NCBI RefSeq assembly: GCF_054482525.1
Contig: NZ_CM137006.1
DNA: 64,000 nt
Reading direction: 5' to 3' (one strand)
Shown: piece after piece, positions 6,001 to 12,000 of the stretch
Numbering within the stretch: position 1 is the first letter of the stretch
Layout: each line of letters opens with the position of its first letter
Made by a program: the position numbers

Positions 6001-9000
6001 CTGCCAGGGAAAGATCAGATTATCGTATACCGTATCGCCAAACAGCGTCGGCGTCTGGGCGCAGTAAGACACTTGCTGGCGGTAGATTTCTGGCTTTAGT
6101 GTGCTGACATCCTCACCTTCAAACAGTAACGTTCCGCTGGTTGGGCTGATCAATGAAGCAACTATTTTTAGCAGCGTACTTTTGCCACAACCAGAAGGAC
6201 CGGTAATTAACTTAAATTCGCCAGCACGCAGCGAAAAATTGATGTTATTAAGAATCTTCGCATCACCCGCCAGATATCCTACGTTTTGTAGCTGAAGCAA
6301 AGGACTATTTTCCTGCATCGCTGTTCCCTTTTTCTGATTTTTACTAAAAACAGTTTATCCTTCGCAGGAATAAGGGGGAACTCTCTTTCAGTAATCAGGT
6401 ATAATTTGTTTAATCAAGCAGCAATTTTGCTGATTATGGACGGTACAACAGGAGGTTTTTCCGATGCTTATCTTTATCCCGATTCTCATTTTTGTCGCGC
6501 TGGTCATTGTCGGCGCGGGCGTCAAAATCGTGCCGCAGGGCTATCAATGGACGGTAGAACGTTTTGGTCGCTATACCAAAACGTTACAGCCGGGGCTCAG
6601 TCTGGTGGTGCCGTTTATGGATCGCATTGGTCGCAAGATCAATATGATGGAGCAAGTGCTCGATATCCCTTCCCAGGAAGTTATCTCGAAAGATAACGCC
6701 AACGTTACCATCGACGCCGTGTGCTTTATTCAGGTGATTGACGCGCCGCGCGCGGCTTATGAAGTCAGCAATCTGGAGCTGGCGATCATCAACCTGACCA
6801 TGACTAACATCCGTACCGTGCTGGGTTCAATGGAACTTGACGAAATGCTCTCTCAGCGCGACAGCATCAACTCACGCCTGCTGCGTATTGTCGATGAGGC
6901 CACCAACCCGTGGGGGATTAAAGTCACCCGTATTGAAATTCGCGACGTGCGCCCACCAGCAGAGCTTATCTCTTCAATGAACGCGCAGATGAAAGCGGAA
7001 CGTACCAAACGCGCTTACATCCTTGAAGCGGAAGGGATCCGTCAGGCGGAAATCCTCAAAGCCGAAGGTGAAAAACAGTCGCAAATCCTGAAAGCGGAAG
7101 GCGAACGTCAGTCGGCGTTTTTACAGGCTGAAGCGCGTGAACGTTCCGCTGAAGCAGAAGCCCGCGCCACCAAAATGGTGTCTGAAGCCATTGCCTCCGG
7201 CGATATTCAGGCGGTGAACTACTTCGTAGCACAGAAATACACCGAAGCGTTACAGCAGATCGGTTCCTCCAGTAACAGCAAAGTAGTGATGATGCCATTA
7301 GAGGCCAGCAGCCTGATGGGGTCGATTGCCGGGATTGCCGAGCTGGTGAAAGACAGCGCCAACAAACGGACTCAGCCATGATGGAGTTAATGGTCGTTCA
7401 TCCACATATTTTCTGGCTCAGTCTCGGCGGGTTGCTGCTGGCAGCCGAGATGCTGGGCGGAAATGGTTATTTGTTGTGGAGCGGCGTGGCAGCGGTGATT
7501 ACCGGTCTGGTGGTCTGGCTGGTGCCGCTGGGTTGGGAGTGGCAAGGGGTGATGTTTGCCGTCCTGACGCTGCTCGCCGCCTGGCTGTGGTGGAAATGGT
7601 TGTCGCGGCGGGTGCGCGAACAAAAGCACAGCGACAGTCATTTAAACCAGCGCGGGCAGCAGCTTATTGGCCGACGTTTTGTGCTGGAATCTCCGCTGGT
7701 CAACGGGCGAGGTCATATGCGCGTCGGTGACAGTTCATGGCCTGTCAGCGCCAGCGAGGATCTCAGTGCAGGTACGCATGTTGAGGTGATTGCGATAGAA
7801 GGGATAACGCTGATTATCCGTGCGGTCATCGCCTGATGCGACGCTGATGCGTCTTTTCATGCCTACAAAATATGCCCGAATTGTAGGCCGGATAAGGCGT
7901 TTTGAACTGAACCCCAAAACCTGGACAGTTTCAGTTAACCGGCTTTTTGATGCTCAGTCCGGTATTCTACCGGACTGAGTCCCCCAAGACTGAGTTTTAT
8001 TCTTTTTTGATTCCAGTAAGTTATGTATTCGTTAACGGCATTTTCCAGCTCTTCTACATTTCTGTAGTCCCGGCGATAGTACATTTCTTCTTTCAGGTGA
8101 CCAAAGAAGTTCTCCATTACCGCATTATCAAGGCAGTTGCCCTTGCGCGACATGCTCTGCACTAACCCTCTGTCCGCCAGGGCGGACTGATAACTTTTTA
8201 TCCGGTAATGCCATCCTTGATCACTGTGGAGCAGCGGTTTCTCCCCTTCAGCAAGGCTTTCCAGCCCCTTATTTAACATCCGCTTCACCAGCTCCTCTGT
8301 AGGCCTGCAGGCCGTTTCCCACGCCACGATTTCCCCGTTAAACAAATCAAGTATCGGGGACAGGTACAGTTTTTGTCCGCCAGCCCTGAATTCGGTGATA
8401 TCTGTCACCCATTTCTCACAGGGAGCTTCCGCTTTGAACTGCCGCTGAAGGATATTTTCTGCAGCGAGTCCCATATTTCCCCGGTAAGACCGGTATTTCT
8501 TCAGGCGCACAGGAGACTTCAGGCCGAGCTGTTGCATCAGTTTTCGCACCGTTTTGCCACTGAACTTAAGACCTCTTTTCTGAAGCTCACAATGGATCCG
8601 CCGGTACCCATAACATCCCCGGTGTTCATGGAAGATGGAGGCTATGAGCTGTTTCACATCAGCATACTTGTCCTTAGCCTTCTGCAGTGACAGCTGGTAG
8701 TACAGCGTGCTTCTGGCCAGCCCTGCAGCCTTTAACAGGTCAGACTGGCAGTGTCCGCACCTCAGGCTCCGGATGACTTTCGTTTTTTCTCCAGCTCCTG
8801 GCGCTTTTTTTCCAGGAGATGCTCCTGCATGGCTTTCAGATATGCATTTTCTGCGCGAAGATAACGCAGCTCATTCTTCATCTCTTCCGGCGTCATGTTT
8901 GCCTCGTTTTCATGGGTATCATCAGAACGGGTCATGCTTTTCTCCTTCCTGCGCCTGATAAAGGCCTCATTACCAGATTTGCGGTAGCCTTTTATCCAGT

Positions 9001-12000
9001 TTTTAACCGTGTTGTGGCTGGGAATGTTAAACCGGGCAGCTACCCGGGGTAGAGACTCAGAATGCCCGAGAGCATAAAGAACCACGCAAAGTTTATCTTC
9101 AGGAGAATAGCTACGCTTGTGTCTGCAATCCAGTGCCCGAGGACCGTGAAGAAGAAAAAGATTAATCCAGTGTGAGAGGCTGGTGTGAGAAAGTTGAAAG
9201 AGTTTTGCCGTAGAAATGATGCCTGCATGACCAGCCAGGTAGTGATTTACAGCGGCAAGTTTTACTTCAAATGAATGTTTCATAAACTGCACCTTCAGAT
9301 GTCAGATTATGTCCAACATTTGGGGTGCAGTTCAGTTTACGCCGCATCCGGCGGTTATGCGCTGATGCCTGATGCGGCGCGGGCGCGTCTTATCATGCCT
9401 GGAAGTCTGCGCCCGAATCGTAGGCCGCCTCCGCTATATTAACTGGCATTGGCAAATTACTCGTCACTACCTTTATTCATGTTTTTTTGGTCTTCATCCG
9501 GATAATGTTTTTTTAGATATTCCAGGACGTTTTTATTGACCTTGTGTTGCGTATACACCCACCCTTTCCAGTAATCAGGCTGGTCCAGGTAAACTTCTGG
9601 CGGAATGGTGAAATCAGAAAGCGTTAACCATTCGGCTAACAGATCGGGGTTTCGTTTCTGGATTAACTGCAACAGCATAATCAGTGACATAGCTGAGGCA
9701 GGAGCCGTACTATCACCACTCAAATATTTCCACACTGTTGACCGGTTCGAACGAAAAAGGATCGGTAGCAATGCCCGGTCCAGATTCATTTCATTAAAAA
9801 TCTTCTCAAATTCATTCATTTAAATTTTCCTGCCTGGCGTAAACCTCTTAAAAATTGAGATTTATCAAAGAAACGCATTTTAGCACACATCAGGAACCGC
9901 TTCACGTTTAGTCCAGAAACAGAATTTATTTCGCTTATCAAAACAAGTCTTTACTCTTTTTTACATTGAAAGAGCACAAAATGATTTTCTATTTTATTTA
10001 TATAAGAAACATTTTTTGTTTCTTATTGGTGGTGTTTACGCTTACACCAAACAAAAATGCGCTTTACATCACACAAATGGCGGCGTAGATTTCGATCAAA
10101 TTGCAACGCAGATTAATTCTTATAACAACGTTTTACGTTGCTTATAGAAACAAATATGTGACTTACTTTGAAAGAGAAAAAATGCATGAAAACTGTAAAG
10201 CTGTCTTTACTGGCTGTCGTTGTTGCTACCGCGGTAAGTCCATCTGCGTTTGCGGGTGATACTGTTGAGGCGGCAACGACAGAATTAACGGCAATCCAGC
10301 CAGGAATGTCGCAATCGGAAATTGATCAGAAAATTGGTCGATTTTTAGAAAGGACAGGGAATAGTGCAGCCGCACAAAATTATCTGATTGCGCATGATTA
10401 CCGGACAACGACACCTCAGGAAAATACAGCTGCTTCTCCCGTACAGCCCACCAATACGCTGAACCCGATAACCAATCAAGCGCAGACCGACCGCGACAAC
10501 GGGCAGGATACCGCCATTCAGGACGCACAACATGCCGCCAACTGGGCTTCAATGAAAGCTGATGACGCGCAGCACGCCATTATGGTGGCGCAGACGGATA
10601 TTGATGCCAATAAAGCCGCCATCGCCGACACCCGTAATGATGTCTCCGCAGTGCAGTCAGACGTCACCAACATAAAAGGCGATGTCGCACATGCCCAGTC
10701 AACGGCTGACCATGCCAACGCTAACGCCAACGCCGCTCTGATGAACGGCGTCAAACTTTCCGGTGCTGTGACAGAAAACAAAAATAATATCGAACAGAAC
10801 CGCAGCGATATTGCTGACCAGCAGCAACAACTCGACGAAACCCGGAAAACCGTTGCCGCCACCGGTGATGTACAGACTGCCGCCCGATATCAGAGCATGA
10901 TTGACGCCAGACAGACTGCTGCTGCCAATGCGCAACAGGAACAAGCGGACACCCAGCAGCAACAAATGGACGATCAGCAGAAACAAATCGACGCGACGCA
11001 AAAAACGGTTTCCGCACTTGGCGATGACCAGACCAACGCACATTATCAAGAGATGGTTAACGCCGAACTGAGAGCACAAAATGATGCGAATGCGCGTACT
11101 GCAGCAGAACAAAAACAAAAAATAGATACTCTGGCGACTAACCAGGCAACACAACAGCATATCGATAGTGTGCAGTACGGGGAACAAATTCAGCGTCTGG
11201 CGCAAGACTCAACACAAACGCATGAACAAATTGACAGCCTGACACAAGACGTAACCCAAACGCATCAGCAGTTAAGCAACACGCAAAAACGAGTAGCGGA
11301 TAATAGCCAGCAGATTACTACGCTCAATAACCATTTCAGTTCGCTGAAAAACGAAGTTGAGGACAACCGTAAAGAAGCCAATGCGGGAACTGCATCAGCC
11401 ATCGCTATCGCCTCACAACCACAGGTGAAAGCCGGTGACTTTATGATGATGTCAGCGGGAGCGGGAACCTTCAACGGTGAATCTGCGGTGTCTGTCGGAA
11501 CATCTTTTAATGCCGGAACGCATACCGTGATTAAAGCCGGTGTCTCTGCGGATACGCAATCTGATTTCGGCGCGGGTGTCGGCGTGGGATATTCTTTCTA
11601 ATATTCCAATCCTCAATATAAATAAGAGCAAGGAAGCTTGCCGGGTTTCACCTCTTCATTAATTTGTACATTATTTAAGGTTAACAATGATGAATAGCTC
11701 CATTAAATCGTTTTCCCTGCTGGCGGTTATATTACTGGCTGGCTGTAGTTCACCCACTTCCCGCATCGCAGATTGCCAGGCGCAGGGCGTCAGCCATGAC
11801 ACCTGTTATCTCGCAGAACAACAGCGTCAGACGGCTATTTTAAGTGCATCCGAGGCGCAGGCATTTAAAAATGCAGAAGCCGCACAACATGCCCAGGCCG
11901 CTAAAAAATCTATTTATAAAGGATTTGGCATGACCTTTAGAATGAGCAGTAAGAACTTTGCTTATCTCAATGATTCATTATGTGCAATTGATGAAGACAA

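What the first reader, a model, noticed from the sequence alone, without database searches (positions are those of the whole stretch)
7840..9450. IS1397-like element inserted precisely into the loop of a REP palindromic unit
Removing 7,903-9,334 and one copy of GTT rejoins the flanks into gccggataaggcgtttacgccgcatccggc, a canonical REP unit. The element is 1,432 bp with TGAACTG...CAGTTCA ends and an orfA/orfB pair with an A AAA AAG slippery site. REP-loop targeting with a 3-bp duplication is the hallmark of IS1397 as I recall it, and the intact duplication suggests a relatively recent event. The IS marks the boundary of the adhesin islet.
Basis: partly seen in the sequence, partly recalled or inferred. 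Interest (0 to 1): 0.45.

Follow-up and report, generated by a model that had tools for sequence, protein, structure and literature searches.

The report
IS1397 inserted in a REP loop
This is an ordinary, intact copy of the known E. coli insertion sequence IS1397, recently jumped into the loop of a REP hairpin just after the ybbJ gene, which is where this element is known to land.

Summary
Window 7903-9334 is a 1,432-bp IS3-family element with TGAACTG...CAGTTCA ends. It has an orfA/orfB pair joined by an in-register A AAA AAG -1 frameshift site.

It is IS1397 itself, not just IS1397-like. It is 100% identical to copies that RefSeq annotates as "IS3-like element IS1397 family transposase".

The flanks rejoin into a canonical Y-type REP/palindromic unit. 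E. coli strain 1190 carries exactly that empty site, at 100% identity over 446 nt.

One correction: the target duplication is 4 bp (GTTT), not 3 bp (GTT). In other copies of the element the duplication is 3 bp (7 cases) or 4 bp (6 cases).

Of 48 distinct IS1397 left flanks collected from genomes and metagenomes, 42 carry a REP arm 12-19 nt from the junction. The background rate in the window is 0.35% of positions.

The insertion is recent. None of 5,426 complete E. coli genomes has this junction at above 96.3% identity. The closest genomes match the surrounding 25 kb at 99.9-100% but lack the IS. The copy has no differences from three copies at other loci, two of them in those closest genomes.

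The IS did not bring the adhesin islet: about 810-825 genomes have the islet without it.

This is known biology and of low interest.

The parts
7903..9334 (-). Complete IS1397 copy (1,432 bp). The transposase reads on the minus strand.
   Evidence: It is 100% identical over its full length to copies annotated 'IS3-like element IS1397 family transposase'. Copies with differing flanks fix the ends at TG...CA.
9310..9334 (-). IRL, the terminal inverted repeat at the transposase 5' end: TGAACTGCACCCCAAATGTTGGACA
   Evidence: Matches the other end at 21 of 25 positions.
7903..7927 (+). IRR, the terminal inverted repeat at the transposase 3' end: TGAACTGAACCCCAAAACCTGGACA
8762..9283 (-). orfA (173 aa plus stop), the helix-turn-helix DNA-binding part
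   Evidence: Pfam HTH_28 (9.6e-18), HTH_Tnp_1 and HTH_29. The ATG at 9283 equals the RefSeq CDS start.
8804..8810 (-). A AAA AAG slippery heptamer for the -1 programmed frameshift
   Evidence: It is in X XXY YYZ register with orfA. The resulting fusion is 449 aa, equal to the RefSeq joined CDS labelled 'programmed frameshift'.
7935..8810 (-). orfB frame (DDE/integrase catalytic part), read after the frameshift
   Evidence: Pfam rve (1.2e-21), rve_2 and HTH_21. The fusion protein hits NCBIfam NF033516, IS3 family transposase, at 387 bits against a cut-off of 160.
7899..7902 (.). Left copy of the 4-bp target-site duplication, GTTT
   Evidence: The empty site in strain 1190 reads GGCGTTTACGCC.
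9335..9338 (.). Right copy of the 4-bp target-site duplication, GTTT
7883..7902 (+). Left half of the interrupted Y-type palindromic unit (REP): GTAGGCCGGATAAGGCGTTT
   Evidence: The reverse complement of the rejoined unit matches 34 of 35 positions of the published E. coli REP TGCCGGATGCGGCGTAAACGCCTTATCCGGCCTAC. The rejoined unit folds as a hairpin of -12.2 kcal/mol with loop TTTA.
9339..9352 (+). Right half of the interrupted palindromic unit: ACGCCGCATCCGGC
7831..7866 (+). Neighbouring Z-like palindromic unit of the same BIME, in opposite orientation. It overlaps the ybbJ stop codon (7834-7836).
   Evidence: Sequence reading. The 446-nt empty-site query hit repeat copies all over every genome: query positions 109-273, corresponding to window 7827-7902 plus 9339-9427, matched a median of 25 places per genome.
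9367..9402 (+). Third palindromic unit of the BIME (Z-like), followed by a truncated unit starting GTAGGCC at about 9421

Best explanation
An intact, probably active copy of IS1397 (IS3 family) transposed recently into the apical loop of the second palindromic unit, a Y-type REP. That unit belongs to the BIME lying immediately downstream of ybbJ, at the left edge of a roughly 3-kb ybbJ-cueR islet.

Shown here:
- The identity of the element.
- Intact inverted repeats and intact orfA/orfB with an in-register A AAA AAG -1 frameshift site.
- A 4-bp GTTT duplication, with a natural empty site.
- A strong association of IS1397 copies with REP loops.

Inferred from established IS3-family biology and from the IS1397 papers cited in PMC1525189:
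- The OrfAB fusion transposase, made by -1 frameshifting, excises a copy as a double-stranded circle (copy-out-paste-in).
- The transposase itself recognises the palindromic unit.
- Staggered cuts 3-4 bp apart across the loop give the 3- or 4-bp duplication.

Here the cuts fall between C and G on the 5' side of the last stem base and after the third loop T.

The site lies between convergent genes, ybbJ and a 120-aa hypothetical gene. The first REP downstream of ybbJ stays intact. The insertion is therefore most likely neutral.
For: Identity:
- 100% identity over 1,432 bp to IS1397-annotated copies; 3,485 of 5,426 genomes have a match.
- Pfam HTH plus rve domains, and NCBIfam IS3 transposase at 387 bits.
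- The frameshift fusion of 449 aa equals the RefSeq joined CDS.

Target:
- Empty site at 100% over 446 nt in strain 1190.
- The REP is canonical: it folds as a hairpin, has two close relatives in the window against 0 expected by chance, and matches the published REP at 34 of 35 positions.
- 42 of 48 distinct flanks carry a REP arm 12-19 nt from the junction, against a 0.35% background. Both orientations and both Y and Z units are used.
- Duplications are 3 bp (7 copies) or 4 bp (6 copies).

Recency:
- No identical junction in 5,426 genomes.
- The nearest genomes, 19KM1776, SCU-102 and PCN033, are 99.9-100% identical over 25 kb apart from the missing IS.
- Zero differences from the copies at trmL/cysE, caiE/caiF and yjgA/mpl.

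Literature: IS1397 inserts specifically into REPs/palindromic units, and the transposase determines the target.
Against: - I could not compare directly with the ISfinder type sequence. The identity rests on PGAP naming of identical DNA.
- No transposition or expression data exist for this copy.
- The 48 flanks are not all independent events, because some are the same locus in diverged strains. Some metagenome contigs look chimeric: four intact-length copies lack a duplication and one has only a 2-bp match.
- Two to six flanks are not recognisably REP, so the specificity is strong but not absolute.
- ECA64 and CB6837 carry IS1397 at the same loop with the same GTTT. A shared origin by recombination, rather than a fresh insertion, is not formally excluded.
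Confidence: 0.95

Rival explanations
1. The IS was not inserted in this lineage. It arrived by homologous recombination from a strain that already carried IS1397 in this same palindromic unit, such as an ECA64/CB6837-like lineage.
For: ECA64 and CB6837 have IS1397 in the homologous unit, in the same orientation and with the same GTTT duplication. Their IS differs from the window copy at only 1 of 1,432 positions.
Against: The ECA64 flanks are only 96.4% (left) and 98.8% (right) identical to the window. The linker about 20 nt from the left junction differs, so any recombination tract would have to end within the REP itself. The window copy is identical to three copies at other loci, two of them in the nearest genomes, but not to the ECA64 copy. 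BH100 shows an independent hit of the same loop, with a 3-bp TTT duplication and a different downstream context, so recurrence at this loop is expected.
Confidence: 0.04
2. The element is a different REP-associated IS of the IS3 family, for example an ISKpn1-type relative, and only resembles IS1397.
For: ISKpn1 is a related IS3-family element that also targets palindromic units. The ISfinder type sequence could not be aligned here.
Against: Full-length 100% identity to copies that NCBI names IS1397 family in well over a thousand E. coli genomes. The host is E. coli and the targets are E. coli-type Y and Z units.
Confidence: 0.01

Closest known systems
IS1397 (IS3 family; Bachellier 1997, Clement 1999, Wilde 2001 and 2003)
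   Same: - A 1,432-bp element with TG...CA ends.
- orfA/orfB joined by an A AAA AAG -1 frameshift.
- Inserted in the loop of an E. coli palindromic unit (REP) inside a BIME.
- A short (3-4 bp) target duplication.
- 100% identical to RefSeq copies named IS1397 family.
   Different: Nothing of substance. This insertion site, the ybbJ-proximal BIME in this lineage, appears in no complete RefSeq E. coli genome with identical flanks.
ISKpn1 (IS3 family, Klebsiella pneumoniae)
   Same: A related IS3-family element that also targets palindromic units, with specificity residing in the transposase (per the titles and abstracts cited in PMC1525189).
   Different: It belongs to a different host and targets a different palindromic-unit type. 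The window element is identical to E. coli IS1397 copies.
IS621 (IS110 family, E. coli)
   Same: Also REP-targeting in E. coli (PMC3184786).
   Different: It has a different transposase family and different chemistry. It inserts at the 3' side of the REP, outside the inverted repeat, not in the loop, and it lacks an orfA/orfB frameshift.

Membership tests
IS3 family insertion sequence | Transposase with an N-terminal helix-turn-helix and a C-terminal DDE/integrase (rve) core | tested here: met
   Pfam HTH_28, HTH_Tnp_1, rve and rve_2. NCBIfam NF033516, IS3 family transposase, at 387 bits against a cut-off of 160.
IS3 family insertion sequence | Two overlapping ORFs fused by a -1 programmed frameshift at an A AAA AAG-type heptamer | tested here: met
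   The heptamer at 8810-8804 (minus strand) is in register. The 449-aa fusion equals the RefSeq 'programmed frameshift' CDS. Frameshifting itself was not measured.
IS3 family insertion sequence | Imperfect terminal inverted repeats ending 5'-TG...CA-3', with a 3-4 bp target duplication | tested here: met
   The inverted repeats match at 21 of 25 positions and the ends are TG...CA. The duplication is GTTT here, and 3 or 4 bp in 13 other intact pairs.
IS1397 (the specific element) | Near-identity to the IS1397 type sequence | tested here: inconclusive
   It is 100% identical to copies that PGAP names 'IS3-like element IS1397 family transposase'.
IS1397 (the specific element) | Insertion into the central loop of palindromic units (REP) of BIMEs | tested here: met
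   This copy is supported by the empty site, the hairpin with loop TTTA and the match to the published REP. Across copies, 42 of 48 flanks carry a REP arm, against a 0.35% background.
IS1397 (the specific element) | Transposase-determined target specificity and active transposition | not testable with these tools
   Known only from the literature (Clement 1999 and Wilde 2003, cited in PMC1525189). Indirect support here comes from the strain-specific new copy identical to copies at other loci.
REP / palindromic unit (Y type) within a BIME | An imperfect palindrome of about 35 bp matching the E. coli REP consensus, highly repeated, with neighbouring units in alternating orientation | tested here: met
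   It matches the published REP at 34 of 35 positions. The flanks hit a median of 25 places per genome. Oppositely oriented Z-like units lie at 7831-7866 and 9367-9402.

The most novel reading that the evidence does not exclude
The most novel reading still open is that this ybbJ-proximal palindromic unit is a recurrent IS1397 hot spot. It has been hit independently in at least two lineages, with GTTT and TTT duplications. In that reading, the insertion alters termination or stability of the convergent ybbJ and islet transcripts, and so affects expression of the neighbouring YadA-like adhesin islet.
Probability: 0.05. Interest if true: 0.3.

Novelty: already known. Interest (0 to 1): 0.08.

Why it matters
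It matters little beyond annotation. It is a clean, datable example of IS1397's known REP-loop specificity, and it gives a strain-specific marker for typing this lineage. The side results are modestly useful but confirm published biology. Those results are the 3- versus 4-bp duplications, the use of both orientations and of both Y and Z units, and about 88% REP association across 48 flanks.

Tried and rejected
- Primary papers: I tried to read the primary IS1397 papers (PMC94167, PMC95333, PMC169884). They are not held, so published specificity is cited second-hand from PMC1525189 and PMC3184786.
- Species representatives: a scan of species-representative genomes for the IS end gave only 3 loci, in E. 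albertii, one E. coli and a 209-bp contig filed under Chryseobacterium that is probably contamination. This was too few to be useful.
- Sampling insertion sites: fetching the best hit per genome mostly returned the same trmL/cysE locus. The metagenome scan was the productive source of diverse sites.
- Orientation: an early impression that the IS always has one orientation relative to the REP came from the first 6 sites. The larger sample rejected it, with 22 tail-arm and 20 head-arm flanks.
- 1,433-bp alternative: I considered a 1,433-bp element with a 3-bp GTT duplication. I rejected it because copies with ATT, CCA, TCA and ACA duplications fix the ends at TG...CA.
- IS as islet carrier: I rejected the idea that the IS brought the islet, because about 810-825 genomes have the islet without the IS.
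- Context fetch: one request for a 64.6-kb region exceeded the tool's 50-kb size limit.
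Full report
**Observation**

Window 7903-9334 is a 1,432-bp element that begins TGAACTG and ends CAGTTCA. Its terminal inverted repeats match at 21 of 25 positions. The end motif occurs only at these two places in the 64-kb window, where 0.11 matches are expected by chance.

On the minus strand, orfA starts at the ATG at 9283 and encodes 173 aa with helix-turn-helix domains. It overlaps orfB, which carries the rve integrase core and ends at 7935. The heptamer A AAA AAG at 8810-8804 (minus strand) is in X XXY YYZ register with orfA. 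A -1 shift there gives a 449-aa fusion protein. That fusion scores 387 bits against NCBIfam NF033516, IS3 family transposase, whose cut-off is 160. Its span equals the joined 'programmed frameshift' CDS that RefSeq annotates on identical copies.

**Identity**

The 1,432 bp are 100% identical, end to end, to copies in many complete E. coli genomes that are annotated 'IS3-like element IS1397 family transposase'. In that search, 3,485 of 5,426 genomes have a match and 1,707 have a near-full copy. The median is 1 place per genome.

So the element is IS1397 itself rather than IS1397-like. I could not align it to the ISfinder type sequence, so this rests on PGAP's naming of identical DNA.

**Target and duplication**

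The left flank ends ...GTAGGCCGGATAAGGCGTTT and the right flank begins GTTTACGCCGCATCCGGC.... I joined the flanks with one GTTT removed and searched the result. E. coli strain 1190 carries exactly this empty site, at 100% over 446 nt without a gap (H31; read).

The insertion therefore adds 1,436 bp, made up of the 1,432-bp IS and a 4-bp duplication, GTTT (7899-7902 and 9335-9338).

An alternative parse would be a 1,433-bp element with a 3-bp duplication. Other copies exclude it. Their duplications are ATT (trmL/cysE), CCA (caiE/caiF), TCA (yjgA/mpl) and ACA, and these fix the ends at TG...CA.

The rejoined unit folds as a DNA hairpin of -12.2 kcal/mol with loop TTTA (z-score -3.1). The duplication covers the last stem G and three loop T's. 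Three further results show the unit is canonical:
- Two close relatives of it lie elsewhere in the window, at 51303-51332 and 63400-63429, where none are expected by chance.
- Its reverse complement matches 34 of 35 positions of the E. coli REP printed in Additional file 13 of Tobes and Pareja 2006, which shows an IS1397 copy of CFT073 split at the same loop.
- It is the second unit of a BIME. Oppositely oriented Z-like units lie at 7831-7866 and 9367-9402, followed by a truncated unit. The empty-site query, which carries this BIME, hit a median of 25 places per genome.

**Is REP-loop targeting real for this element?**

The literature held here states that IS1397 inserts specifically into REPs and that the transposase is responsible for the specificity (PMC1525189 and PMC3184786, citing Clement 1999 and Wilde 2001, 2003). 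The primary papers were not available.

I tested the claim independently. I collected IS1397 left ends from RefSeq genomes, from species-representative genomes and from metagenome contigs. This gave 66 copies with 48 distinct 35-nt left flanks. The results:
- 42 of the 48 flanks carry a REP arm (GCC[G/T]GAT...) 12-19 nt from the junction. Only 0.35% of positions in this window meet that criterion.
- Four of the six exceptions are still REP-like palindromes. Two are not (L016, L033).
- Both orientations occur (22 tail-arm, 20 head-arm flanks), and both unit types are used (28 Y, 14 Z).
- Among 18 distinct sites whose copy is 1,432 bp with both flanks readable, the duplication is 3 bp in 7 and 4 bp in 6. 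Four have none and one has only a 2-bp match, probably from chimeric assemblies or recombination between IS copies.

Two caveats apply. Distinct flanks are not all independent events, and metagenome contigs can be chimeric.

**Recency**

A 300-nt query across the left junction found no complete genome with this junction above 96.3% identity. Only five records carry IS1397 next to ybbJ. They represent three strains: ECA64, CB6837 and BH100.

The nearest genomes are 19KM1776, SCU-102 and PCN033. They match window 1-25000 at 99.9-100% with 94% coverage, and the missing 6% is the IS. These genomes carry IS1397 elsewhere: one search lists 6 places each in SCU-102 and PCN033. The window copy has no differences from the copies at trmL/cysE, caiE/caiF (PCN033) and yjgA/mpl (SCU-102).

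The other insertions at this loop differ from the window:
- BH100 has IS1397 in the homologous loop with a 3-bp TTT duplication, 11 differences in the IS and a different downstream context. This is a clearly independent hit.
- ECA64 has the same GTTT duplication, but its flanks are 96.4% and 98.8% identical to the window and its linker differs about 20 nt from the junction. That favours independent insertion over import by recombination.

**Context**

In K-12 the stop codons of ybbJ and cueR abut, and there is no BIME between them. Window homology to K-12 stops at 7827, nine bases before the ybbJ stop, so the last three codons differ. It resumes at about 12313, the cueR stop.

The intervening islet of about 3.05 kb begins with the BIME. 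It then carries a 120-aa hypothetical gene, a YadA-like adhesin gene and two small hypothetical genes.

About 810-825 genomes carry the islet with an uninterrupted BIME. So the IS lies about 75 bp inside the islet edge and had no part in bringing the islet.

The IS sits between convergent genes and leaves the first REP after ybbJ intact. I infer that the insertion is neutral.

**Mechanism**

This part is inferred from established IS3-family biology and was not tested here. OrfAB is made by -1 frameshifting. Transposition is copy-out-paste-in, through a circular intermediate. The transposase recognises the palindromic unit. Staggered cuts 3-4 bp apart across the loop give the duplication.

**Verdict**

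The phenomenon is already known, so interest is low.

Noticed in passing
window 16055-37737 (minus strand): The giant siiEA/BapA-like adhesin gene appears as two ORFs, 16055-30937 (4,960 aa) and 30913-37737 (2,274 aa), overlapping by 25 nt. Strain 1190 has a single 20.8-kb CDS. This could be a frameshift, a pseudogene or a sequencing error.
   Followed up: no
window 7828-12312: The ybbJ-cueR islet of about 3.05 kb holds a BIME, a 120-aa hypothetical gene, a YadA-like adhesin gene and two small hypothetical genes. It is inserted where the K-12 ybbJ and cueR stop codons abut, and it replaces the last three codons of ybbJ (RAVSS* becomes RAVIA*).
   Followed up: partly
NZ_CP024650.2 (E. coli BH100), locus L003: This strain has 38 places for the 300-nt junction query. 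The published maximum is 11 copies (PMC7314097). This suggests an IS1397 burst.
   Followed up: no
L003 2690-4121; L002 2699-4130: The same palindromic-unit loop after ybbJ carries IS1397 in other lineages: BH100 with a 3-bp TTT duplication, and ECA64 and CB6837 with GTTT. This points to recurrent use of one REP as a target.
   Followed up: partly
L016, L033, L065, L004/L051: A few IS1397 copies have flanks that are not E. coli-type REPs. L016 and L033 show no palindrome. L065 and the E. albertii copies (L004/L051) sit in other CCGGCC-type palindromes. Several metagenome copies lack a duplication or share one right flank, which suggests chimeric assembly or recombination between IS copies.
   Followed up: no
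L066: This metagenome contig is exactly 1,432 nt at 2,368-fold coverage and ends with an IS end. The repeat has probably been collapsed into its own contig by the assembler; I did not check its other end.
   Followed up: no
L006 (NZ_MVAG01000238.1): A 209-bp contig filed under Chryseobacterium mucoviscidosis carries an IS1397 end in an E. coli-type Z unit. Its left flank is identical to those of metagenome contigs L056 and L063. It is almost certainly E. coli contamination of that assembly.
   Followed up: no
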